Source of the DNA: an uncultured archaeon | GTDB taxonomy: Archaea; Asgardarchaeota; Lokiarchaeia; Sigyniarchaeales; SOKP01 | Direction: 5' to 3' | Assembly: GCA_964583985.1 (NCBI GenBank) | Contig: CAZOYD010000098.1 | Coordinates: 1 to 10,129 of the forward strand | DNA: 10,129 nucleotides | Shown here: in pieces, positions 1 through 10,129 of the stretch | How the letters are laid out: every line of letters starts with the position of its first letter | Numbering within the stretch: position 1 is the stretch's first letter | Position numbers and translations under genes: made by a program | Notes under the pieces: model-generated | Seen by the model: the letters and a program-made list of their open reading frames with translations, nothing else | The model's database searches: none | What the model was told of the DNA's origin: nothing

Positions 1-42
1 AATATTAAAATAATAAATAAAAGCTGTAAAAATCTTCCTCAA

Positions 43-918
43 ATGGTGCTTGAAAAAAACTATAAATTAGGGATTATCTACGGGTTAGGTCCTGAAACTG
101 AAATGTTAACCCAAAAGTTTGTGGGGAATCTTATCAATGATGATAAGTTTTGCAAGGCATGTGAATTATTAGAACTAAATGTAAAATGCGATCATTGTAG
201 AGAGACTTTAAAAGGCCATGCTAATTCAATTTACTTTTATGAGCAAGTAGGTACCAATGCTCCAGATTTCATCGAGGATCCAGAAAAATATTTGCCTCAT
301 AATATCCCTGAGCTCGATTTCTTATTAGTTATTGGTATTCATCAAGATCTACTTTCTGGGCTCCCGGATTTTATAAAAGATAAAAAAATCAAAGCGGTCA
401 TCATTCCCATAGAAGACTCTAAATGGGTTCCAGCAGGACTCCAAGTTCAAGTTTTAGAAGATTTTGAAAAATTTGGAATTCAAGCGGCATTCCCAAAACC
501 TTTCTGTGCTTTAAGTAAAGAATTGAATGAATATAATAAAGTGGGATTTAACACTACTAAGGAACGGAATTACATAGTAGAATTCATTGAATTTTTTAAA
601 ATTGGAGAACCAATTATTTCTCTTTTACTCAGTAAAGATGGTAAATCAATTGAAGATACTTGTGTCATCCAATCAGCACCGTGCGGTTCAACTTATTTCA
701 TACTCCAACAATTGCATGCTAAATACATTAATGATGAAAAAACCAGCTTAAATGAAAAAATTAGTAAGGCACATCATTCCTATCCTTGTAATGCATCAAT
801 GGAGCAAGATAATATATTGAAAGATTCTATCTTACATATTGGTGGTACTTTAGTAAGGAATGAGATAAGAAAGCAATTAAATCTTCCCATAGAAGAATAT
901 GTATATCTTATAAATTAA
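43..918 (+). CDS. DUF166-family protein (Cys-rich, function unknown)
   Basis: 291-aa ORF with ATG start. Motifs I recognise from DUF166 proteins: FIEDPEKYLP, IHQDLL, PKPFCAL, SAPCGST, HHSYPCNASM, DSILHIGG. N-terminal CKAC-x8-CDHC. Confidence 0.75.
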   Translation: MVLEKNYKLGIIYGLGPETEMLTQKFVGNLINDDKFCKACELLELNVKCDHCRETLKGHANSIYFYEQVGTNAPDFIEDPEKYLPHNIPELDFLLVIGIHQDLLSGLPDFIKDKKIKAVIIPIEDSKWVPAGLQVQVLEDFEKFGIQAAFPKPFCALSKELNEYNKVGFNTTKERNYIVEFIEFFKIGEPIISLLLSKDGKSIEDTCVIQSAPCGSTYFILQQLHAKYINDEKTSLNEKISKAHHSYPCNASMEQDNILKDSILHIGGTLVRNEIRKQLNLPIEEYVYLIN

Positions 919-1023
919 TATATAACCATTTCCTCTTTTGGAGTAAGAATATTATAAATAATAATTTCTATTATTGAAACTTATTCCAAGATCTATCACT
1001 TTTTGATTGAGTCTTATTATACA

Positions 1024-1053
1024 TAAATAGAAATTTTTTAAGGTTTCTATTTA
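1024..1053. promoter_or_regulatory. Perfect 10-bp inverted repeat (TAAATAGAAA-N10-TTTCTATTTA), candidate metalloregulator operator
   Basis: Arms at 1024-1033 and 1044-1053 flank a TTTTTTAAGG TATA-like spacer. Ends 22 nt before the ATPase start; SD-like AGGAG at 1064-1068. Confidence 0.45.
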
Positions 1054-1075
1054 ATTAACAATTAGGAGAATCAAG

Positions 1076-3229
1076 TTGAATCTTGTAGAATGTTCAAGTC
1101 CAGTTTGCAGTCTCGAAGACGAGGAGATTGAAGAAGAATCATTTTTTGAGGATCATTTTTGGGCTTTTATAATCCCCTCAGCAATAATACTGACTCTTTC
1201 TATTTTTTTAGAATTTTTTACTCAACAAATTCTTATCAGTCAAGCATTAGCTATAGCTTCAATATTTTTATCAAGTTATGGAGTTGTCAGTGAAGCTATT
1301 GAAGATATATTACATAAAAAAATCACAGCCAATATATTAATGATTGTGGCTGCAATCGCTGCATTTTTTATTTTACACGGTCAAGAAGGGGCAACCGCGA
1401 TTTTATTATATGCGATTGCAGAGCATTTGGAGGAAATAACGACTGAAAAGTCTCGAAATGCCATAAAAGGATTGTTAGAATTAGCTCCCCAAGAAGCGTT
1501 ATTAAAAAGAGATGATTCGTATGAAATTGTTCTTGCCAAGGAAGTTAAAGTTGGACAGGTCATTGGCATTAAACCCGGAATGAAAGCACCTTTAGATGGA
1601 ATTATCATCAATGGACAATCATATTTTGACGAGAGCGCTATTACCGGAGAATCTTTACCCGTATTTAAGCAAGAAAATGATGAAGTCTATGCAGCAAGTA
1701 TTAATAGTGATAGTTTTATTGATTTAAAAGTCACTCGAGAAAGTTCAAATACAATTGTCGCTCAAATAGCCGAAAGCATAAAAAAAGCACAACAAAATAG
1801 AAGTGTGAGCGAGCGATTTATAGAAAAATTTGCTAGATATTACACACCTATTATCCTATTAGCTTCTCTAACGGTAATGTTTATCCCAACTCTCATCTTT
1901 AATCAAAATTTTAATGAATGGTTTTACAGGGGTTTGGTGTTATTAGTAGTTTCTTGTCCGTGTGCTTTAACGCTTTCGACTCCTCTTGCAAACATTACTG
2001 CTCTGACAAAATTAGCTAAAGAAGGGATATTAGTCAAGGGGAATAAGTATATTGAAAGAATGAATAAAATAGAAATTTTGGCGTTTGATAAGACGGGAAC
2101 GCTTACAGAGGGAAAGTTGAAAGTTTTTGATATTATCTCTTATTCTATCAGTAAAGAAGAAGTCCTTTCAATCGCTGCGAGTTTAGAGACACTTTCTGAA
2201 CACCCAATTGGAAAAGCAATTGTAAAGCAGGCAAATAATTTAGATTTAAAGATTACTTCAGTTCAGAATTTTGAGATCGTGAGGGGGAAGGGTATTACAG
2301 GAGAAATAGGAACCAAAATGTATCATGTTGGTAGTAAACGGTTCTTTATGGAATTATTGTATGATTTACCATCCAAAGAATTAAAGAAAATTGAACAAGA
2401 GGGCACTATTCCAATATTAGTAGGTTCAAATGGTAAATTATTAGGGATTATCACCATACGAGATGTTTTGAGAATTTCTGCTCCTCTTTTGGTGAATGGT
2501 TTGAAAAAGCGAAAATTAGAAGCGGTTTTAATATCTGGTGATAATCAAAAGGTGTGTAATGAAATTAGTGCTTGTCTTGACATTGATTCTTCTAGAGGAG
2601 AATTATTGCCGGATCAAAAACTTGAAGAAATAAAAAAATTAAAACAACAGAGTAAGGGAGTTGCAATGGTTGGCGATGGCATAAACGACGCTCCAGCTTT
2701 AGCTCTTGCTGATTTAGGAATTGCAATTGGAGTTTCTGCTACTGATTTAACTCTTGAAACTGCTGATGTCATTATTATGAGTGATGACCTCAAAAAAATC
2801 CTCACTTTCATCGATGTGTCAAAAAAGACAAATAGCATAATAAAACAAAATATTTGGACTTCCATTATAGTAAAAGTATCTTTTGCGGTTCTTACTGTTT
2901 TTGGTTTGATGACTTTATGGTTAGCAGTGGGAATTGGAGATATGGGAGTTTCACTCTTAGTATTGATCAACGGCCTCAGAAATTTAAGATATAAAAGTAA
3001 ATTTAAAGAGATCAATACTGAAATCTTAGAATCTGAAGCAAGGATGTTGATTTGTGAATCGTGTAAAACAAAAAAATTAATTCCTCAACATCACGGAAGG
3101 GATATGCTAAAATCTGAAGATCATTTAGTTTGTTGGAGAAAATTGTTAAATAGCGATGAATTAGAACCTTGCGATGAGGAGTTGCCATTATTTTGCCCTA
3201 ATTGCGAAAATCAACTTAAACTTTTATAA
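1076..3229 (+). CDS. Heavy-metal-translocating P1B-type ATPase, P1B-2 (ZntA/CadA-like Zn/Cd/Pb), with C-terminal Cys/His extension
   Basis: TGES, SCPCAL (CPC), DKTGTLT phosphorylation site, SEHP, GDGINDAPAL. Lys in the penultimate TM (IIVK) and DMG in the last TM are P1B-2 signatures. TTG start 7 nt after AGGAG. Confidence 0.93.
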   Translation: MNLVECSSPVCSLEDEEIEEESFFEDHFWAFIIPSAIILTLSIFLEFFTQQILISQALAIASIFLSSYGVVSEAIEDILHKKITANILMIVAAIAAFFILHGQEGATAILLYAIAEHLEEITTEKSRNAIKGLLELAPQEALLKRDDSYEIVLAKEVKVGQVIGIKPGMKAPLDGIIINGQSYFDESAITGESLPVFKQENDEVYAASINSDSFIDLKVTRESSNTIVAQIAESIKKAQQNRSVSERFIEKFARYYTPIILLASLTVMFIPTLIFNQNFNEWFYRGLVLLVVSCPCALTLSTPLANITALTKLAKEGILVKGNKYIERMNKIEILAFDKTGTLTEGKLKVFDIISYSISKEEVLSIAASLETLSEHPIGKAIVKQANNLDLKITSVQNFEIVRGKGITGEIGTKMYHVGSKRFFMELLYDLPSKELKKIEQEGTIPILVGSNGKLLGIITIRDVLRISAPLLVNGLKKRKLEAVLISGDNQKVCNEISACLDIDSSRGELLPDQKLEEIKKLKQQSKGVAMVGDGINDAPALALADLGIAIGVSATDLTLETADVIIMSDDLKKILTFIDVSKKTNSIIKQNIWTSIIVKVSFAVLTVFGLMTLWLAVGIGDMGVSLLVLINGLRNLRYKSKFKEINTEILESEARMLICESCKTKKLIPQHHGRDMLKSEDHLVCWRKLLNSDELEPCDEELPLFCPNCENQLKLL

Positions 3230-3257
3230 TTCATTAGTATATTTACTTATCATTAAA

Positions 3258-3342
3258 TGCGGGAAAGGGGATTCGAACCCCCGGACTCCTACGAGACTGG
3301 ATTCTGAGTCCAGCGCCTTTGACCAGACTTGGCAATTCCCGC
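3258..3342 (-). tRNA. tRNA-Leu (anticodon CAG), 85 nt, no intron, CCA not encoded
   Basis: Reverse complement reads GCGGGAATTGCCAAGTCTGGTCAAAGGCGCTGGACTCAGAATCCAGTCTCGTAGGAGTCCGGGGGTTCGAATCCCCTTTCCCGCA. Acceptor stem GCGGGAA/TTCCCGC, discriminator A, anticodon stem CTGGA/TCCAG with loop CTCAGAA, archaeal Leu-type variable arm CTC-GTAG-GAG, T-loop TTCGAAT. Confidence 0.96.
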
Positions 3343-3388
3343 ATATTTGAAAATTCTAAAGTAAGATGTAGAAAATAATTGCATCAAC

Positions 3389-3402
3389 TTTTTATATCTT
3401 TT
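3389..3402 (-). promoter_or_regulatory. Possible BRE/TATA promoter of tRNA-Leu
   Basis: Minus strand reads AAAAGATATAAAAA about 47-60 nt upstream of the tRNA. The AT-rich background weakens the call. Confidence 0.3.
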
Positions 3403-3509
3403 GAACTTTTACCTAAAAAACGACTCTAATATCCGTCAATTTTTATAGCTATTACATTATTATATATTATAATTAGTTACATTGAAAAAACCGTAAATTG
3501 GTCTTGAAC

Positions 3510-4238
3510 ATGTCTAATGAAAAGCCACAGGGGGAATCTCCTGAAAGAAAAGAGCTATCAATTGTTGTCTATCAATTTAATGACCAGATTGGTGATTTTG
3601 AGGAATTAATCATAGATCCAGATGTAAAATTGTCTGATTTATTAGATGATGATTTTATTTTATTATTTGTTGATCCCAAACATTATAGAGTCTGGCTTTG
3701 GCATGGGTGGAACACCACTACCCGCATGAAATTCATTGCAGCGAAGATGGCCCAACCAATAAGAGATAAACATGGAATTGCATATAAACTCACAGCAGTG
3801 GATCAAGATAGTGAAACACATGGTTTTAAAGTCATGATTGGAACAGAAGCGGAAATAGATTATACAAAAGAGCAAACTGGTCCTACATATGAAGGAACTG
3901 AAGAGAATTTAGAATTATTAGAATCACTCTCAAGAGAAAAAATTTTACTAATTCTTGAAAAAGCTGGAGTTCCTAAGGATTATGAATTGAAAATGGTTAT
4001 CGTTAAGAACACAATTTATGGGTTTAGAGAATATGAAAAGAACTATTTGGGTTCTGTTATTAAGGAAAAACAACTATTTCCTCTAAAAGAAGAAGTTGAA
4101 GATGGGTCCTATTTAGCAGAGGGATATACACCTCGAATGATTTTTTCTTATAATAATGTAGTGCTCACACAACTGCTACAGAAAATTGAAGTGGATGATA
4201 GTATAAAGAAGCAGTCACTTAAAGATCTTGATGCTTGA
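3510..4238 (+). CDS. Gelsolin-domain protein (one gelsolin/villin repeat plus uncharacterised C-terminal domain), Asgard-type actin regulator candidate
   Basis: LLDDDFILLFVD..YRVWLWHG..TTTRMKFIAAKMA..LTAVDQDSETHGF matches the gelsolin repeat pattern (LxxxDxFILD..IYVWxG..xxEKxxA..VxQGxExxxF) over about 3561-3842. ATG at 3510 preferred to the TTG at 3498. Confidence 0.8.
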   Translation: MSNEKPQGESPERKELSIVVYQFNDQIGDFEELIIDPDVKLSDLLDDDFILLFVDPKHYRVWLWHGWNTTTRMKFIAAKMAQPIRDKHGIAYKLTAVDQDSETHGFKVMIGTEAEIDYTKEQTGPTYEGTEENLELLESLSREKILLILEKAGVPKDYELKMVIVKNTIYGFREYEKNYLGSVIKEKQLFPLKEEVEDGSYLAEGYTPRMIFSYNNVVLTQLLQKIEVDDSIKKQSLKDLDA

Positions 4239-4240
4239 TA

Positions 4241-4381
4241 ATGAATGCTGCAAGAAGAAGGTACATAAAAAAGAAGAAGAAAAGAAGAATGAGTGTAGGG
4301 ATAATTATCATCTTAATACTTTTCATTAGTATCTTTGTCAGTATTTTCTTTCTGATTCTTGCATTACCGGGATTAAATTAA
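4241..4381 (+). CDS. Small (46 aa) polybasic single-pass membrane peptide, not in the ORF track
   Basis: Translates to MNAARRRYIKKKKKRRMSVGIIIILILFISIFVSIFFLILALPGLN. ATG lies 2 nt after the gelsolin stop (TGATAATG). 10 of 12 consecutive residues are basic, followed by about 24 uncharged, mostly hydrophobic residues. Confidence 0.65.
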   Translation: MNAARRRYIKKKKKRRMSVGIIIILILFISIFVSIFFLILALPGLN

Positions 4382-4406
4382 ATATGCAAGTATTTAATTA
4401 GCCCCC

Positions 4407-4415
4407 TTTTATATA
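4407..4415 (+). promoter_or_regulatory. Probable TATA box for a leaderless or short-leader transcript of the VTT gene
   Basis: TTTTATATA 30-38 nt upstream of the ATG at 4445, which has no SD motif. Confidence 0.35.
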
Positions 4416-4444
4416 ACATAATTAATAATCGTTAGATACGATTT

Positions 4445-5161
4445 ATGAAACTCAAACGAATAGATTTAATCTTTCTAATCTTAATTGTAATTGTCACAAT
4501 CATTTCAATTGATTTAATGCTTAATGAATCACATAGAGAACTAATTGAAAATATTTCTAAGTACCCTCCATTTCAAGATTTAGCATCAGGACTTTTGATC
4601 ACGTTTGTAATATGTTTAATTGGTAATTTAATTCCGTTTCCCACTCCCTACACATTTGTAGTTTGTTTTAGTGCGGCTCCCTTTTTATCATTAAATATTT
4701 ACGTGCCCTTATTGATTGCTTTAATTGCTAGTTTAGGATGTTTAATTGGTGAATTAGGCGGATATTTCGTGGGTAGAGGTGTTTCTCAATTGATCAAAGA
4801 AGAACAACGGATAAAATTATCACCATATCAACAGATTTTATTGGAACATCCAAGATTAGCCCCTTTTCTTATTTTTATAGCGGCTCTTACACCCTTAAAT
4901 GATGATTTTATAACAGTTCCATTAGGATTGCTAAAATATTCTTTAAGAAATACTATTTTTTGGTGTTGGCTTGGAAAATTTGGATTAATGTTAATTTTCG
5001 GGTATAATCTATTAAATATTTGTAGTTTTTTAGGAGGAGAAAGCTGGATTTTAAGCATTATTACTCTATATTTAATTATTTTGTTAGTATATCTCTTATT
5101 AAAAGTTGATTTATTAAAATTCTTTAATAGAATTTTAGACAAAAATAAAAAAGAAAATTAA
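4445..5161 (+). CDS. VTT-domain / DedA-superfamily (SNARE-associated) membrane protein, VMP1-like
   Basis: Highly hydrophobic 238 aa. Motifs GNLIPFPTPY, ASLGCLIGELGGYFVGRG, AALTPLNDDFITVPLGLLKY and CWLGK fit the DedA/VTT re-entrant-loop pattern. Confidence 0.82.
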   Translation: MKLKRIDLIFLILIVIVTIISIDLMLNESHRELIENISKYPPFQDLASGLLITFVICLIGNLIPFPTPYTFVVCFSAAPFLSLNIYVPLLIALIASLGCLIGELGGYFVGRGVSQLIKEEQRIKLSPYQQILLEHPRLAPFLIFIAALTPLNDDFITVPLGLLKYSLRNTIFWCWLGKFGLMLIFGYNLLNICSFLGGESWILSIITLYLIILLVYLLLKVDLLKFFNRILDKNKKEN

Positions 5162-5176
5162 TGGAAAATTCTTTTG

Positions 5177-6706
5177 TTATTTCTGGTTGTTTCTTATTTC
5201 AATACCATCCGGTAGAGTAATACCATCGACCATTAATCCTTCAGCTTTTTTATAATCATCAAAAGTTCTTGATTGGACTTCCTTCATGTATTTAAGCAAT
5301 TGATCTTCCATGATATTATCTAATTTATTTGGTTGATGAAGTTTTAGAATTTCGTTGACTTTTTCTCGTGCTCTTTCTATGATATCTTTAGACCCTTTTT
5401 TTTGCCAGGTCGAACGTCTGGATCTATCAGATAATCGTGGTATGTATAGTTCTGACTTCATGTATTTTCGTGTATGACTTTCGGCTAGGAAATTAACTCC
5501 TTTCTTTTGACTTGTTGCTACTCTCTTTATTACATCTAATCCTATGGTGTCTTCATCAACGGATATCCCATCCATCGTTCTTTTTACCATTCCCACTAAA
5601 TCATCATCAATTACTAAAAGTTCTAATGCTTCAACTAACGTGGCTTCATAAGTACCAGCACAAGTGATATAATTAATACCCGCTTGAGCTGCAAGCATCA
5701 AAGTTTGAAGGCGCTCATATCCATTCTGTAAATCTAAAACTTTAGAATCTGTTCCTGCACCAGGTCCACGAGAAGGAATGTTATAGAACCTTGCTAGTTG
5801 GGCTATACCTGCCGTGATCAGTCCCATTTCCACTGAACCCATAGCAGAATTCCCTGATCGCATATCCGTTACGTGAGAAACTGTTCCAAAGAAGATAGGA
5901 GCTCCAGGATTTAAAATTTGGGATAACACTGCGCTTCCTATTATCTCGGCATTAGTCTGAACCAATAAACCTGCTAAAGTTACTGGAGCTGAACTTCCCG
6001 CGATAGCTTCAGGAGCGATAATGGTAGGCTGTTTATATTTTGTGAAAATAGCAAACCCATTTGTCATTAGAATTGGCAAGTGAAGCGGGGAAGTTGGATT
6101 CATAAAACCTATAAATCTCGGTCTTTTAATTAGCTCTTCTTCTCCTCCAACAATAATTGATGCCATATTCATCATGTCTTGGGATGCCAATCTTCCTAGA
6201 CATCCCAACCCATAAGGCTTTTTAGTATTTTTTACCCATTGATAAATACACTCAGCATGAATAGTTATATATGATATATCATTCGGCCATACATCAACAT
6301 GGGAACACACGATGTTCTCTAGACTATCCACAATTTTAATTTGCTCTATTGTATCATTCATCACGCTTTTTCGCACTCCTTTCTCCTTTTTGGGGTCATA
6401 TATCTTAACGGGAGTACCAATAGTTGCAAATTGGGTTGTTGAGGTATTCACTTCGAAGGAAAACGAACCATCGGGTCCGTGCAATCTGAATGAATCTGGA
6501 ACCGTTTTAAGATTTTCCATAACCATTGATTCGGGGAATTTCACGAAACATGTATTATCATCTACTCTCGCACCATTTGCTTTTAGCAGATCTCGGGTAT
6601 CTTGAGCATCTATTTTTATTCCTACCTCTGAAAGTAATGTGATTGAAGCAGAATGAATAACTTCAAGTTCGTCCTTTGAAAAAACCTCTAACTTTTTCAA
6701 TTTCAT
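5177..6706 (-). CDS. Trimethylamine methyltransferase (MttB) superfamily protein, non-pyrrolysine, paralog 1
   Basis: IHxxSxxLLxxVG start, NPTSPL, AGSSAPVTLAGLLVQxNAE, DMRSG..GSVE, AQLARFYNIPSR..TDSKVLDLQNGYE, IERAREKVNEIL. ATG at 6706 is preferred because SD GAGGTGA lies at 6722-6716 and it aligns with the paralog start. Gly at the Pyl-equivalent position; no in-frame TAG. Confidence 0.92.
   Translation of the reverse strand: MKLKKLEVFSKDELEVIHSASITLLSEVGIKIDAQDTRDLLKANGARVDDNTCFVKFPESMVMENLKTVPDSFRLHGPDGSFSFEVNTSTTQFATIGTPVKIYDPKKEKGVRKSVMNDTIEQIKIVDSLENIVCSHVDVWPNDISYITIHAECIYQWVKNTKKPYGLGCLGRLASQDMMNMASIIVGGEEELIKRPRFIGFMNPTSPLHLPILMTNGFAIFTKYKQPTIIAPEAIAGSSAPVTLAGLLVQTNAEIIGSAVLSQILNPGAPIFFGTVSHVTDMRSGNSAMGSVEMGLITAGIAQLARFYNIPSRGPGAGTDSKVLDLQNGYERLQTLMLAAQAGINYITCAGTYEATLVEALELLVIDDDLVGMVKRTMDGISVDEDTIGLDVIKRVATSQKKGVNFLAESHTRKYMKSELYIPRLSDRSRRSTWQKKGSKDIIERAREKVNEILKLHQPNKLDNIMEDQLLKYMKEVQSRTFDDYKKAEGLMVDGITLPDGIEIRNNQK
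6168..6202 (-). repeat. 35-bp perfect inverted repeat, copy 1 (partner 8006-8040)
   Basis: Reverse complement is TGTCTAGGAAGATTGGCATCCCAAGACATGATGAA, identical to 8006-8040. Confidence 0.9.
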
Positions 6707-6722
6707 TTTATTCACTCACCTC

Positions 6723-7370
6723 TTATTTTTTATTGAGAAGTTCTTTAATTTTATGTACGGCTTCAATGCTATCATCTGCCCAAGCATCAGCACCAATTTG
6801 ATCTGCCCATTCTTCCGTAGTAGGAGCACCTCCTACGATAACCTTGTACTTTTCTCGGAGACCTCTCTTTTTTAATTCCTCTATAACTTGTTTTTGAAAA
6901 TCCATTGACATGGTTAATAGAGAAGATAAACCAATTACATCAGCTCCTACCTCTTCCGCCTTTGAAATGAATTGATCAGCCGTAACCTCTACGCCTAAGT
7001 TATATACTTCAAACCCATTAGAAAATAAGAAAGACCCAACTAAATCTTTTCCGATACTATGTACATCACTTTCTACAGTTCCAATAACAACTTTTCCCAT
7101 TGATTTCTTTTTCTCCCCTGCTGCTCTAATGGCAGGATCTAAGATGTCATCAATTGTGGCTTTCACGACCTCTGCAGAACCAATTAATTCTGGGAGAAAT
7201 ATTTCCTCTTTTTCAAATTGGTCTCCAATGAACTTCATGACGGCACCAATGTCTTTAAGAAGTTCAGAAGCTTTTGCTTCTTTATTTTTTAATAATCGTT
7301 GACAATAATTTTTTAGGCCTTCCTCATCCCATTCGACGACAAATTCTTGAATTTTCTCTCTAATTGACAT
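6723..7370 (-). CDS. Methyltransferase cognate corrinoid (B12-binding) protein, MttC/MtbC-like
   Basis: N-terminal cap (IGDQFEKEEIFLPELI), GTVESDVHSIGKDLV (DxHxxG), GLSSLLT, VGGAP. ATG at 7370 (MSIREK) is more plausible than the TTG at 7412. Confidence 0.93.
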   Translation of the reverse strand: MSIREKIQEFVVEWDEEGLKNYCQRLLKNKEAKASELLKDIGAVMKFIGDQFEKEEIFLPELIGSAEVVKATIDDILDPAIRAAGEKKKSMGKVVIGTVESDVHSIGKDLVGSFLFSNGFEVYNLGVEVTADQFISKAEEVGADVIGLSSLLTMSMDFQKQVIEELKKRGLREKYKVIVGGAPTTEEWADQIGADAWADDSIEAVHKIKELLNKK

Positions 7371-7501
7371 TTTAATTCCATTTAGCTTTAATATAGAAAT
7401 TTGAATTAACAAACGTTTTTTTAAAAAAAAGGTTTTTCATTAATTAATCTTTACCAATCTTAAAATCATCAATTATCTAACTCTACAAGCTTGATAAAAT
7501 C
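7371..7501. promoter_or_regulatory. Divergent promoter region of the methyltransferase locus
   Basis: 131-bp AT-rich gap between head-to-head genes, containing the near-palindrome AAACG-T7-A8-GGTTT (7411-7435). Confidence 0.55.
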
Positions 7502-9004
7502 ATGAAAATGAATAAACTTAAGGTATTAGAAAAAGAAGAAATTAGCCTAATCCATGGGAAAACTTTGGAACTTTTAGAAAAAATTGGAGTAAAAGTAGAA
7601 TCTGAAGAAGCTCGTAGTCTAATAAAGGAAAATGGAGGAATAGTGGACGATAAAACGCACTTTGTGAAATTCCCTGAAAATTTAGTATTAAAACAACTTA
7701 AATATGTCCCAGAATCTTTTACTTTATGGGGGTCTGATGGGTCCTATAGTGTTGAAGTGAATACAAGAAGTGTTAATTTTGCGACTGTGGGAACTCCTGT
7801 AAAGATCAATGACCAAACTAAGAAAAATGGAGTGCGAAAAACCGTGTTGACCGACACGATAAAACAAATTCGTATTGTTGATGCCTTGAAAAACGTGTGT
7901 TGTTCTCACGTTGATGTATGGCCGAATGATATTCCTTACTTGGAATTACATTACCATGCTATTAAAGCGTGGGCTGAAAATAGTGTTAAACCGTATGGTT
8001 TGGGGTGTCTAGGAAGATTGGCATCCCAAGACATGATGAACCTCACATCATTTATAGTAGGAGGAGAGGAAGAATTAAAGAAAAAGCCCCGTTTAATTGG
8101 ATTTTTTAATCCTGTAAGTCCATTAATGATGAGTACACTTTTATTAAATGGATTATTTATTTTTGCTAAATATAATCAGCCCTTAATCATCGCTCCGGCA
8201 GCTAGTGCAGGTTCAACAGCTCCAGTTACATTGGCGGGATTACTCATTCAATCTAATATGGAAACCTTATCTTCAATAACATTAGCTCAACTTATCAATC
8301 CAAGATGCCCGGTCTTTTATTCAACTATGAATGCCCCCATGGATCCTCGAACGGGAAACGTTGCTTGGGGAAGCATTGAAACGGGGTTAATAACAATTGG
8401 AGCAGCTCAATTAGCACGATATTATAACATCCCTTCAAGAGGACCCGGTTTAGTGACTGAATCCAAATGTTTTGACATTCAAAATGGTTTTGAGAGGATA
8501 ATGACATTATTCTGCGCTGCAAATGCAGGAATTAATTATATCACTTGTGCCGGTACTTATGAATCTTCTCTTGCTGAATCGTTAGAACTGCTTGTAATTG
8601 ATGATGAATTGATAGATATCGTTAAACGGGGAATGTATGGTATCAAGGTAGATGATAATACCATGGCTATAAATGAAATTGAACGAGTAGCAACAGAAGG
8701 AAAGAATTATTTAATGTTAAAGCACACTTCAATAAACACAAGAAAAGAACTTTTTGTTCCTAAGCTAGCAGATCGAGATCGTAGAGGTGCATGGCAGAGG
8801 AATGGTTCAAAAGATATCATTGAACGGGCAAGAGAAAAGGTCAATCAAATTCTTGAAAGTCAGAAGGGCCCAGGAATTTCAAATGAAGTGGAAAAAGAAT
8901 TTCAAGAATATTACAAGAAGATCTCTTCACGTACATATGAAGATTATCAAAAAGCTGAAGGAATGGATAAAACTGAAGGGATAAAATTACCCGGTATGGA
9001 GTGA
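7502..9004 (+). CDS. Trimethylamine methyltransferase (MttB) superfamily protein, non-pyrrolysine, paralog 2
   Basis: Collinear with paralog 1 (roughly half of residues identical by eye). NPVSPL, AGSTAPVTLAGLL, DPRTG..GSIE, YNIPSRGPGLVTESK. Val at the Pyl-equivalent position. Confidence 0.92.
   Translation: MKMNKLKVLEKEEISLIHGKTLELLEKIGVKVESEEARSLIKENGGIVDDKTHFVKFPENLVLKQLKYVPESFTLWGSDGSYSVEVNTRSVNFATVGTPVKINDQTKKNGVRKTVLTDTIKQIRIVDALKNVCCSHVDVWPNDIPYLELHYHAIKAWAENSVKPYGLGCLGRLASQDMMNLTSFIVGGEEELKKKPRLIGFFNPVSPLMMSTLLLNGLFIFAKYNQPLIIAPAASAGSTAPVTLAGLLIQSNMETLSSITLAQLINPRCPVFYSTMNAPMDPRTGNVAWGSIETGLITIGAAQLARYYNIPSRGPGLVTESKCFDIQNGFERIMTLFCAANAGINYITCAGTYESSLAESLELLVIDDELIDIVKRGMYGIKVDDNTMAINEIERVATEGKNYLMLKHTSINTRKELFVPKLADRDRRGAWQRNGSKDIIERAREKVNQILESQKGPGISNEVEKEFQEYYKKISSRTYEDYQKAEGMDKTEGIKLPGME
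8006..8040 (+). repeat. 35-bp perfect inverted repeat, copy 2 (partner 6168-6202)
   Basis: TGTCTAGGAAGATTGGCATCCCAAGACATGATGAA, encoding CLGRLASQDMM(N) in both MttB paralogs. Confidence 0.9.
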
Positions 9005-9009
9005 TTAAA

Positions 9010-10129
9010 ATGGAAGAAGAAAGAAAAACACCAGATCAAATCAATAAAGAATTAAGAGAAAAGTGGGATCAATGGCAATTTGATACACAGCAGATTAGAG
9101 CTGGAGAAGATCCTTATCCCTCTACATCACATAGCCTAAGAACGCCAATTTATGCAACGAAATCTTATACTTATTCAACCATGTCTGAAATGTTAAAAAA
9201 TAATTATTTCTATTCAAGAACTGAAAATCCAACATTATACGCTTTAGATAAGAAAATGGCAACCCTCCATGGAGGTGAGGAGGCGTTATCGGTGGCATCT
9301 GGAATGGCTGCTGTTCATTTATCTCTTTCTAGCGTCTTTCAAGAAAGGATAGATAGAATGAGACCGAAAAAAGTCGAAAATTATTACCCTCAAAATAACC
9401 CTACGCATTTTCCGAATATTATCATTCACAAGCATCAATATACTGGCGTATTTCGGTTATTAACTAAAATATATCCACAAATGGGTAATACAGCCATTAG
9501 TGTAGATATGCGTAATTTAAAGGAAGTAGAAAGTGCGATAACAGAACAAACTAAAGCCGTATTTTTTGAAACTCCGACAAATCCTTCCATTGATATTATT
9601 GATATCGAAGAAATTTCAAGTCTCATTCATGAAGTGGGGGGAAAATGCATTGTTGATAACACGTTTGCCTCACCAGCACTTCAACAACCCTTTAAACACG
9701 GAGCAGATTTAGTAATTGAAAGTTTAACTAAATATGTCAATGGTCACGGAGATACTCTTGGTGGTGTTATTATTGGACCAAAAGCAGAAATTCGAAACAT
9801 TCGATATTTTTGGCAAGAGACTCAAGGTCCAGTGATGAGTGCATTTAGTGCTTGGCTCATTCTAAGAGGTATAAGAACATTAAGTCTAAGGATGGAAAAA
9901 CATTGTTCAAATGCTATGAAGATTGCTAAATTCTTATCCTCACATCCAAAAGTGAAGGATGTGATTTATCCGGGCTTAGATTCTCATCCAGGTTATGAAA
10001 TAGCCAAAAAACAAATGAAAAATTTTGGAGGAATGGTAGATTTCGAGTTAAAAACCGTAGAAGAATGCTACAAGTTAATGGAACTCTTTAAATTGATAAA
10101 GGTTGGAGTTTCATTAGGAGATACAACTT
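9010..10129 (+). CDS. PLP-dependent Cys/Met-metabolism enzyme (methionine gamma-lyase / cystathionine gamma-synthase/lyase family), 3' end outside the window
   Basis: Open frame from ATG 9010 (SD-like GGAGTGA at 8998-9004) to the window edge, 373 codons. Motifs TPIYATKSY, YSRTENPT, SGMAA, ETPTNP, VDNTFASP, SLTKYVNGHGD (PLP Lys241 at 9730-9732), LRGIRTL, YPGL, VSLGD. Absent from the ORF track, presumably because there is no stop in the window. Confidence 0.92.
   Translation, partial: MEEERKTPDQINKELREKWDQWQFDTQQIRAGEDPYPSTSHSLRTPIYATKSYTYSTMSEMLKNNYFYSRTENPTLYALDKKMATLHGGEEALSVASGMAAVHLSLSSVFQERIDRMRPKKVENYYPQNNPTHFPNIIIHKHQYTGVFRLLTKIYPQMGNTAISVDMRNLKEVESAITEQTKAVFFETPTNPSIDIIDIEEISSLIHEVGGKCIVDNTFASPALQQPFKHGADLVIESLTKYVNGHGDTLGGVIIGPKAEIRNIRYFWQETQGPVMSAFSAWLILRGIRTLSLRMEKHCSNAMKIAKFLSSHPKVKDVIYPGLDSHPGYEIAKKQMKNFGGMVDFELKTVEECYKLMELFKLIKVGVSLGDTT

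What the first reader, a model, noticed from the sequence alone, without database searches (positions are those of the whole stretch)
5177..10129. Divergent locus of two non-Pyl MttB methyltransferases, a corrinoid protein and a Cys/Met PLP lyase: candidate pathway for methyl-sulfur or methylated amino acids
Seen: corrinoid to MttB-1 (16-nt gap) on the minus strand and MttB-2 to lyase (5-nt gap, SD overlapping the stop) on the plus strand, from one 131-bp divergent region. Known: characterised non-Pyl MttB enzymes (MtgB, MtcB, MtpB, MtyB) demethylate quaternary amines such as glycine betaine, carnitine, proline betaine and butyrobetaine onto a corrinoid protein; Met gamma-lyase-family enzymes cleave C-S bonds of sulfur amino acids. 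Inference: the coupling suggests a substrate such as S-methylmethionine, a sulfonium betaine analogue (demethylation to Met, lyase cleavage to methanethiol plus 2-oxobutyrate, possible second methyl harvest), or another methylated amino acid feeding the C1/Wood-Ljungdahl pool. I know of no described MttB plus gamma-lyase pathway.
Basis: partly seen in the sequence, partly recalled or inferred. Interest (0 to 1): 0.8.

Follow-up and report, generated by a model that had tools for sequence, protein, structure and literature searches.

The report
Asgard methyl-transfer plus PLP-lyase gene cassette
A Loki-type Asgard archaeon carries a conserved, gained-or-lost-as-a-unit cassette joining two B12-dependent methyl-removing enzymes and their B12 carrier to an unusual methionine-lyase-like enzyme and an importer. 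It probably lets the cell feed on a methylated amino-acid-like compound that nobody has yet identified.

Summary
The order is MttB-1 (5177-6706, -), a 16-nt gap, the corrinoid protein (6723-7370, -), a 131-bp divergent region, MttB-2 (7502-9004, +), a 5-nt gap, then a PF01053 PLP enzyme (9010-10129, +) cut by the contig end.

About 66 of 76 Asgard genomes with this lyase type have an MttB gene within about 2.5 kb. The other 10 or so sit at contig ends, and I found no resolved counter-example.

- **Linkage:** gene order varies, but linkage holds. An MFS_2 importer is convergent downstream wherever the downstream DNA was resolved.
- **Loss:** related genomes without the cassette show clean deletions or MttB-1 relics.
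- **Lyase:** it forms an isolated subfamily with a unique 21-residue insert. It is the only PF01053 gene in the genome and is not a housekeeping enzyme.
- **MttBs:** both keep the Arg that binds acidic onium substrates, but lack MtgB's glycine-betaine residues.

The substrate is unknown. S-methylmethionine is the simplest fit, but the lyase has neither the canonical methionine gamma-lyase signature nor the cystathionine-enzyme one. I found no paper describing this pairing. This scan had already noted the same cassette in other genomes.

The parts
5177..6706 (-). MttB-1: non-pyrrolysine MttB-superfamily methyltransferase, 509 aa (P0001). This is the core MT1 of the cassette.
   Evidence: PF06253 E 7e-102. 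There is no in-frame stop. It is 33%-range related to MtgB 9yce/2qne, E 2e-71. Arg313 (= MtgB R312) is invariant in 38/38 orthologues; I96, T356 and E233 are orthogroup-specific. It is present in every resolved cassette.
6723..7370 (-). Cognate corrinoid (B12-binding) protein, 215 aa (P0004).
   Evidence: PF02607 + PF02310. The best NCBIfam matches are MtgC and MtbC, both below cut-off. It carries the DVHSIG His-ligand motif. It lies 16 nt upstream of MttB-1.
7371..7501 (.). 131-bp AT-rich divergent intergenic region, presumably holding the promoters of both transcription units.
   Evidence: Sequence read. No Rfam element lies there. The bacterial-type promoter scan is uninformative for an archaeon.
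7502..9004 (+). MttB-2: second non-pyrrolysine MttB paralogue, 500 aa (P0002). It is an optional member of the cassette.
   Evidence: PF06253 E 2e-94. It is 57.6% identical to MttB-1. Fixed differences from MttB-1 include E233A, L235S, V276M, H278A, T280M, I96V and T356S. It is absent, or placed after the lyase, in a number of relatives.
9010..10129 (+). PF01053 PLP enzyme of an isolated, insert-bearing subfamily. Here it is residues 1-373 of 425, cut by the contig end.
   Evidence: PF01053 E 5e-105. No NCBIfam equivalog reaches its cut-off. The closest solved structures are bacterial methionine gamma-lyases (39% identity, TM 0.93). The 21-residue insert is unique among 127 family representatives. 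It is the only PF01053 gene in the genome.
4445..5161 (+). VTT/DedA-family membrane protein flanking MttB-1. Membership of the cassette is doubtful.
   Evidence: PF09335. It flanks MttB-1 in many f1 genomes. It is missing beside intact cassettes in L045, L046 and L048, and from G041.

Best explanation
This is an accessory catabolic cassette of one family of Loki-type Asgard archaea. It has five genes, the last of which lies beyond this contig: MttB-1, a corrinoid protein, an optional MttB-2, an insert-bearing PLP lyase, and an MFS_2 importer.

The proposed mechanism is all inferred; no step has been shown by experiment:
1. The MFS_2 symporter imports an acidic, onium-methylated, amino-acid-like compound.
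2. MttB-1 transfers one methyl group from it to the Co(I) corrinoid protein. Where MttB-2 is present, it does the same for a related compound or a second step.
3. Methyl-corrinoid is unloaded onto H4MPT or THF by MtrH-like or pterin-binding methyltransferases encoded elsewhere. A RamA-like activase, also encoded elsewhere, keeps the corrinoid reduced.
4. The demethylated product is an L-alpha-amino acid with a gamma (or beta) leaving group. The PLP enzyme cleaves it to a 2-oxo acid (2-oxobutyrate for gamma-elimination), ammonia and the leaving group. The 2-oxo acid then feeds fermentation.

The simplest candidate is S-methylmethionine: demethylation gives methionine, which is split to methanethiol, 2-oxobutyrate and ammonia. 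The lyase's atypical active-site periphery makes an unidentified relative of that compound about as likely.
For: **Conserved linkage**
- All 20 genus-level and sister-family loci, and all 18 loci from other genera and families carrying the clade lyase, have the corrinoid-MttB-1 pair beside the lyase, or an MttB gene where the corrinoid is not seen or the contig ends. All have the MFS_2 gene where the DNA reaches.
- Across 399 Asgard genomes, about 66 of 76 clade lyases have an MttB within about 2.5 kb. The rest sit at contig ends.
- Three gene orders keep the linkage.

**Loss as a unit**
- G010 shows clean absence.
- G017 keeps a 27-aa MttB-1 relic, G018 a 271-aa relic plus MFS_2, and G028 a 160-aa relic.

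**A specialised but functional lyase**
- The lyase is one 50%-identity cluster. Bit score drops from 654 to 291 for the next full-length hit.
- The insert and about 10 clade-specific residues are invariant in 39 sequences.
- All catalytic residues are kept: Y58, R60, Y113, D185, K210, S339, T354 and R374 in C. freundii numbering.
- The structure model has pLDDT 93, and the insert is ordered.

**MttB features**
- Both MttBs keep the Arg that all characterised members use for the acidic group of their onium substrate (PMC13080624).

**Not anabolic**
- It is the only PF01053 gene in the genome.
- It is absent from 98-100% complete congeners.
- HcyBio is present, and no MetA or MetX was found.

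**Supporting genes and precedent**
- MT2-type and RamA-type genes exist elsewhere in the genome.
- An accessory enzyme beside an MttB has revealed the true substrate before: MthK/MthB and phosphocholine (PMC12155760).
Against: - No substrate is shown, and nothing here is biochemical.
- All genomes with the cassette are close kin. They belong to one family, plus one genus of a sister family and a few possibly mis-binned contigs. The many concordant loci are therefore few independent events.
- The lyase lacks the MGL hallmarks (Cys115, K239/D240) and keeps an invariant Arg149, equivalent to the distal-carboxylate Arg119 of human CGL. Plain methionine may not be its substrate.
- MFS_2/GPH carriers are best known for glycosides and lysolipids, not amino acids.
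- No MttB member is known to use a sulfonium.
- An MttB-1-like gene with its corrinoid partner in G059 has no lyase beside it.
Confidence: 0.5

Rival explanations
1. The lyase acts first, or works as a carrier. The PLP enzyme acts before the methyltransferases: it either releases the true methyl donor from an imported gamma-substituted amino acid, or builds an onium compound by gamma-replacement. An example is attaching dimethylsulfide or a thiol to a homocysteine/methionine skeleton, which MttB then demethylates while the amino acid is recycled.
For: - Enzymes of this family do catalyse gamma-replacement as well as elimination (established knowledge of PF01053).
- A recycling accessory enzyme beside an MttB has a precedent in MthK (PMC12155760).
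- The lyase's hybrid signature fits neither a pure MGL nor a pure CGL.
Against: - A dedicated importer argues for a polar ready-made substrate.
- No O-acylhomoserine-forming enzyme was found.
- There is no precedent for forming an onium by a PLP enzyme.
Confidence: 0.12
2. The cassette degrades a betaine-lipid head group. The substrate would be homoserine betaine, or a glyceryl or lyso form of the algal lipid DGTS. MttB paralogues strip the N-methyl groups, and the PLP enzyme then removes the gamma-O substituent from the freed homoserine derivative.
For: - The importer's best solved-structure matches are the lysophosphatidylcholine symporter MFSD2A (E 3e-22), ahead of MelB.
- Up to three paralogues of this MttB subfamily occur per genome.
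- The lyase has a remodelled active-site periphery and a unique insert next to it, but their bearing on substrate size or type was not tested.
Against: - Three successive demethylations are needed before a PLP enzyme can bind the amine.
- Characterised non-Pyl MttBs remove one methyl from a quaternary amine only (PMC13080624).
- Many cassettes have MttB-1 alone.
- The MFSD2A similarity is weak.
Confidence: 0.1
3. The link is anabolic or homeostatic, to methionine. The PLP enzyme makes or salvages homocysteine as a sulfhydrylase, CGS or CBL. Homocysteine is then methylated from the methyl-corrinoid loaded by the MttBs, as in MtgB-fed methionine synthesis.
For: - MttB-fed methionine synthesis is described in bacteria (PMC12478193; PMC7857596).
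- The top NCBIfam match is a CGS model.
Against: - The cassette has no homocysteine methyltransferase.
- The cassette is absent from near-complete congeners.
- Homocysteine can come from HcyBio.
- No MetA or MetX was found.
- An importer is part of the unit.
Confidence: 0.1
4. This is an ordinary betaine system with a merely linked neighbour. The MttBs demethylate a common betaine, and the lyase sits beside them only through inherited synteny among close relatives.
For: All carriers are close kin, so synteny could be inherited. The flanking genes (orf246, VTT, P-type ATPase) are also syntenic without any obvious role.
Against: - Linkage survives three internal rearrangements.
- The insert-bearing lyase subfamily was never seen outside this context.
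- The genes are lost together.
- MtgB's glycine-betaine residues are not conserved.
Confidence: 0.1

Closest known systems
MtgB/MtgC (glycine betaine), MtcB, MtpB, MtyB and MthB/MthC/MthK (phosphocholine): non-pyrrolysine MttB-superfamily methyltransferase systems
   Same: - A full-length PF06253 TIM-barrel enzyme without pyrrolysine, next to a cognate B12-binding protein.
- The Arg that binds the substrate's acidic group is conserved.
- As with MthK, an accessory enzyme is encoded beside the methyltransferase.
   Different: - Only about 33% identity to MtgB.
- MtgB's Y97, F356 and H348 are not conserved.
- No MT2 or activase lies in the cluster.
- The accessory enzyme is a PF01053 PLP enzyme, which has not been described for any MttB system.
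- The substrate is unknown.
Bacterial L-methionine gamma-lyase (e.g. Citrobacter freundii, PDB 2rfv)
   Same: - It is the best sequence and structure match (39% identity, TM 0.93).
- All PLP and alpha-carboxylate ligands are kept.
- It has Val at the position where engineered human CGL needs E339V to accept methionine.
   Different: - Cys115 is Gly, and K239/D240 are Q/L-E.
- Ala118 is an invariant Arg.
- HPAxxTH is YTSxMTG.
- It has a 21-residue insert before the PLP-stacking Tyr.
- It scores 347 bits against a 549.7-bit cut-off for TIGR01328.
Cystathionine gamma-synthase / gamma-lyase (trans-sulfuration enzymes)
   Same: It has a YxG...R loop with the distal-carboxylate Arg and a Q at the 239 position. 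The top NCBIfam hit is a CGS model.
   Different: - It lacks the E59/E339 pair.
- It scores below the cut-off (371.5 against 513).
- It is accessory rather than housekeeping.
- No O-acylhomoserine source was found in the genome.
The same cassette noted earlier by this scan in other Asgard genomes (e1-5251630 and others)
   Same: The gene set is the same: two non-Pyl MttBs, a corrinoid protein, an insert-bearing PLP lyase and a GPH/MFS importer. The conclusion is also the same: an unidentified methylated amino-acid-like substrate.
   Different: This is another species of the group. Here the contig ends inside the lyase, so the importer is seen only in relatives.

Membership tests
Non-pyrrolysine MttB superfamily methyltransferase (MT1) | Full-length PF06253 domain | tested here: met
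   E 7e-102 (residues 5-478) for MttB-1 and 2e-94 (3-473) for MttB-2.
Non-pyrrolysine MttB superfamily methyltransferase (MT1) | No in-frame amber codon (no pyrrolysine) | tested here: met
   Both frames are uninterrupted. The Rfam PYLIS_3 hits at the gathering score lie in the coding sequence without a TAG.
Non-pyrrolysine MttB superfamily methyltransferase (MT1) | Conserved Arg (MtgB R312) that pairs with the acidic group of the onium substrate | tested here: met
   The PSRGPG Arg313 is invariant in 38/38 MttB-1 and 25/25 MttB-2 sequences. The rule comes from PMC13080624.
Non-pyrrolysine MttB superfamily methyltransferase (MT1) | Adjacent cognate corrinoid protein with the His ligand motif | tested here: met
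   PF02607 + PF02310, DVHSIG, 16 nt upstream of MttB-1.
Non-pyrrolysine MttB superfamily methyltransferase (MT1) | Methylation of Co(I) corrinoid by a defined substrate | not testable with these tools
   This needs an enzyme assay.
MtgB (glycine betaine-specific) | Y97 and F356 (cation-pi) and H348 (carboxylate) | tested here: not met
   Y97 is Ile/Val, F356 is Thr/Ser, and H348 falls in a gap. These proteins are therefore not filed as MtgB.
L-methionine gamma-lyase | Reaches the curated equivalog score (TIGR01328) | tested here: not met
   347.1 bits against a cut-off of 549.7.
L-methionine gamma-lyase | Active-site Cys (Cys115/116) and the Lys-Asp pair (239/240). These are MGL hallmarks as I recall them from the literature. 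| tested here: not met
   Gly146, and Q/L269-E270, in 39 clade members. The I-C-A-KD-V signature is seen in only a few representatives.
L-methionine gamma-lyase | PLP and substrate-anchoring residues (Y58, R60, Y113, D185, K210, S339, R374) | tested here: met
   All are invariant in the clade.
Cystathionine gamma-synthase / gamma-lyase | Curated score, and the E59...R119...E339 signature | tested here: not met
   NF005871 scores 371.5 against 513. The Arg is present, but position 59 is Phe/Tyr and position 339 is Val.
Cystathionine gamma-synthase / gamma-lyase | Housekeeping role in Cys/Met biosynthesis | tested here: not met
   The gene is absent from 13 of 35 congeners, including genomes 98-100% complete. 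HcyBio is present. No MetA or MetX was found.
GPH (MFS_2) cation symporter (importer, seen in relatives only) | PF13347 domain; TIGR00792 subfamily score | tested here: inconclusive
   PF13347 E 3e-62. TIGR00792 scores 157.8 against a cut-off of 231. The substrate class cannot be inferred.

The most novel reading that the evidence does not exclude
MttB-1 is a sulfonium:corrinoid methyltransferase acting on S-methylmethionine or a close analogue. That would be the first non-nitrogen substrate in the MttB superfamily. The insert-bearing PLP enzyme is its dedicated partner and splits the product. It might even use the methionine skeleton as a recyclable carrier that turns dimethylsulfide or methanethiol into an onium donor. 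Either way, Lokiarchaeia would gain a direct route from plant and algal organosulfur compounds into the Wood-Ljungdahl methyl branch.
Probability: 0.25. Interest if true: 0.8.

Novelty: new variant of a known kind. Interest (0 to 1): 0.6.

Why it matters
Only a handful of MttB-superfamily substrates are known, although the family is very large. Each newly characterised member (carnitine, proline betaine, butyrobetaine, phosphocholine) has identified a new substrate and demethylation route.

Here the neighbouring genes narrow the search to a methylated compound whose demethylated form is an amino acid that a gamma-family PLP enzyme can cleave. That gives a short, testable substrate list for an uncultured but abundant group of sediment Asgard archaea.

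If the substrate is a sulfonium such as S-methylmethionine, three things would follow:
- MttB chemistry would extend beyond nitrogen.
- Asgard archaea would be linked to organosulfur and methanethiol cycling.
- A new, insert-bearing branch of the Cys/Met PLP family would be defined.

Tried and rejected
- **Downstream DNA:** the contig ends at 10129. No other contig carries the lyase 3' end.
- **The look-up of encoding contigs:** Context came only from the genome search and the fetch from genomes.
- **Distribution outside Asgard:** the homologue searches listed only Loki-type sequences among the top 120 hits. I therefore could not place the MttB-1 subfamily among bacterial or characterised members, and I built no tree with MtcB, MtpB, MtyB or MthB.
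- **ESM Atlas:** it returned only generic PF01053 clusters.
- **Mercury link:** I considered a methylmercury role because a P1B ATPase lies nearby and one paper pairs MttB with HgcA. I rejected it. The ATPase is not part of the conserved core, and that paper concerns methylation by other taxa.
- **PYLIS_3 hits:** these reflect coding-sequence homology, not pyrrolysine.
- **Gene conversion between the MttB paralogues:** inverted matches are only 70-77% complementary over 143-191 nt.
- **In-frame stops in some MttB-2 orthologues:** these lie outside the aligned gene.
- **Promoter and terminator scan:** it uses bacterial consensus sequences and is uninformative here.
- **Structure model:** it gives no coordinates to measure with, so I could not place the insert relative to the active site.


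Full report
**1. Observation**

The window is an entire 10,129-bp contig (G000:C98) of a 3.8-Mb Asgard genome. NCBI names on near-identical proteins read Lokiarchaeota or Promethearchaeota. Another contig carries a Ras-TrmB fusion.

Reading the sequence gives:

| Feature | Coordinates | Strand |
|---|---|---|
| MttB-1 | 5177-6706 | - |
| Corrinoid protein | 6723-7370 | - |
| Divergent region | 7371-7501 (131 bp) | . |
| MttB-2 | 7502-9004 | + |
| PF01053 enzyme | 9010 to contig end | + |

- The gap between the corrinoid stop and the MttB-1 ATG is 16 nt.
- The gap between MttB-2 and the PF01053 gene is 5 nt, with GGAG abutting the MttB-2 TGA.
- Neither MttB has an in-frame stop.
- The lyase is truncated at residue 373 of 425. 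The full protein is P0006.

**2. Is the lyase really linked to the MttB genes?**

- *Same genus and sister family.* In 60 relatives, 22 of 35 genomes of the same genus, and one of a sister family, have an orthologue of 57-89% identity. I fetched 20 of these loci. Where the contig reaches, every one has the corrinoid-MttB-1 pair next to the lyase. At contig ends only part of the unit is seen. Sixteen also have MttB-2, and four have the lyase directly divergent from the corrinoid gene.
- *Other genera and families.* In 18 further loci from other genera and families the same holds, with one locus showing the two MttB genes but no detected corrinoid gene. A third arrangement also appears, with MttB-2 after the lyase.
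- *Phylum scan.* Across 399 Asgard genomes, 78 have a match, 72 of them in the 133 genomes of one family. Comparing coordinates with the MttB scan, about 66 of 76 clade lyases have an MttB within about 2.5 kb. The rest sit at contig ends, and I found no resolved exception.
- *Distant lyase homologues.* Two more distant ones (46-50% identity, G062 and G175) lack both the insert and any MttB neighbour.
- *Importer.* A convergent MFS_2/GPH transporter follows the cassette wherever the DNA reaches.
- *Loss.* Genomes without the lyase show loss of the unit. G010 has the flanking genes abutting. G017 keeps a 27-residue MttB-1 relic. G018 keeps the importer and a 271-residue MttB-1 relic. G028 keeps a 160-residue relic.

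These genomes are close kin, so the counts overstate independence. The rearrangements and repeated deletions nonetheless argue for a functional unit.

**3. The lyase**

- It is the only PF01053 gene in the genome.
- Against 1.8 billion representatives it forms a single 50%-identity cluster. The next full-length hit has 46% identity or less and 291 bits, against 654 bits within the cluster.
- The closest solved proteins are bacterial methionine gamma-lyases, with 39% identity and TM 0.93.
- No NCBIfam equivalog is reached. CGS NF005871 scores 371.5 against 513, and MGL TIGR01328 scores 347 against 549.7.
- In 39 clade members all catalytic and anchoring residues are invariant.
- Several positions differ from typical family members:
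  - the MGL Cys115 position is Gly;
  - K239/D240 is Q/L-E;
  - HPAxxTH is YTSxMTG;
  - His206 is Glu;
  - a 21-residue insert, with an invariant Arg116 and a near-invariant Pro119 inside it and an invariant Pro-Asn (Asn in 38 of 39) directly after it, precedes the PLP-stacking Tyr.
- Among 127 family representatives only the clade's own has that insert.
- PDB titles flag three positions as switching human CGL towards methionine (E59, R119, E339). The clade has Phe/Tyr, Arg and Val there. This hybrid is neither CGL/CGS-type (E-R-E) nor MGL-type (I-A-V).
- The model is confident (pLDDT 93), and the insert is ordered with a short helix.

**4. The methyltransferases**

- Both relate about equally to MtgB and to Pyl-MttB (E about 1e-70).
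- Of MtgB's four glycine-betaine ligands (PMC13080624), only Arg312 is kept. Y97 is Ile/Val, F356 is Thr/Ser, and H348 falls in a gap. That paper states that the Arg is conserved in all characterised members, whose substrates are all acidic quaternary amines, while the aromatic pair is not conserved.
- MttB-1 and MttB-2 show fixed orthogroup differences, for example Glu233 in 38/38 MttB-1 against Ala in 25/25 MttB-2. This suggests different substrates or steps.
- The genome also has a third paralogue of this subfamily and two distant MttBs.

**5. Wider metabolism**

- MtrH-like genes (two), pterin-binding genes (two) and one RamA/RACo-like gene lie on other contigs. The cassette therefore supplies only the MT1 and corrinoid part.
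- Homocysteine can be made by HcyBio proteins.
- No MetA was found, and MetX gave only weak hydrolase hits.
- Together with the cassette's accessory distribution, this rules out a housekeeping trans-sulfuration role.

**6. Interpretation**

The best-supported reading is a catabolic cassette. An acidic onium-methylated, amino-acid-like compound is imported and demethylated onto the corrinoid protein, and the product is cleaved by the PLP enzyme.

S-methylmethionine is the simplest known compound that meets all the constraints. It is an onium, it has a carboxylate, and one demethylation gives a substrate for a gamma-family PLP enzyme. However, the invariant Arg149, the missing MGL hallmarks and the GPH-type importer leave an unidentified analogue about equally likely.

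The rivals are a lyase-first or carrier scheme, a betaine-lipid head group, a link to methionine synthesis, and mere inherited synteny. They are listed above with their weights.

**7. Novelty**

No paper pairs MttB with S-methylmethionine or methionine gamma-lyase with Lokiarchaeota. Searches on corrinoids, the MttB superfamily and DMSP found no such system. Papers on Asgard genomes mention only generic MttB-like genes.

The MthB/MthK work shows that an accessory enzyme beside an MttB can reveal the substrate. This scan had already noted the same cassette in other genomes, with the same open question.

I rate it a new variant of a known kind, of good but not exceptional interest.

Noticed in passing
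window 5656-5755 (-) and 8453-8552 (+): Rfam PYLIS_3 (the pyrrolysine insertion sequence of mttB) matches both genes at about its gathering score (38.3 and 37.9 bits against 38). There is no TAG codon, so this looks like a coding-sequence homology effect. It is a caution for automated Pyl calls.
   Followed up: partly
window 3257-3343 (-): A tRNA-Leu (CAG) gene lies between the P-type ATPase gene and orf246.
   Followed up: no
L002 (G000:C60) 2755-6403: A third MttB paralogue (49-57% identical to the window's two) converges on a URO-D/MtaA-like methyltransferase. The layout recalls MthB/MthK (phosphocholine).
   Followed up: partly
L050 (G016:C65), lyase codon aligned to W268: The lyase of G016 has TAG where all other clade members with a residue at this position have Trp. 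The cause is a nonsense mutation or a sequencing error. That genome's cassette also lacks MttB-2.
   Followed up: yes
L083 (G017) 10002-10082; L078 (G018) 9002-9814; L085 (G028) 9596-10135: C-terminal relics of MttB-1 are left at the empty cassette site. This shows repeated deletion rather than gain.
   Followed up: yes
L075 (G059:C11) 3890-16817: An MttB-1-like gene (66% identity) and its corrinoid partner, in another family, have no lyase beside them. They are flanked by a GNAT, a Pab87-type D-aminopeptidase-like protein, an Asp/Glu racemase and 2-oxoacid:ferredoxin oxidoreductase subunits. This is an amino-acid-flavoured context.
   Followed up: partly
L070 8055-8877; L057 1544-2179; L054 9708-10301: Insertions lie between the lyase and the importer in single lineages. 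By eye these are a nucleotidyltransferase/HEPN-like pair and an Eda-like aldolase. The third is a flavin reductase-like gene (Pfam).
   Followed up: no
L065 (G132:C217): A 6.5-kb contig binned in a different Asgard family carries the cassette with the gene order of genus g28, at 62-74% identity. This is either mis-binning or recent transfer.
   Followed up: no
window 1-5161: A conserved flank of DUF166 protein, heavy-metal P1B ATPase, orf246 (no family) and VTT/DedA protein accompanies the cassette in many genomes of the family. It is not present in G041. No functional link is evident.
   Followed up: partly
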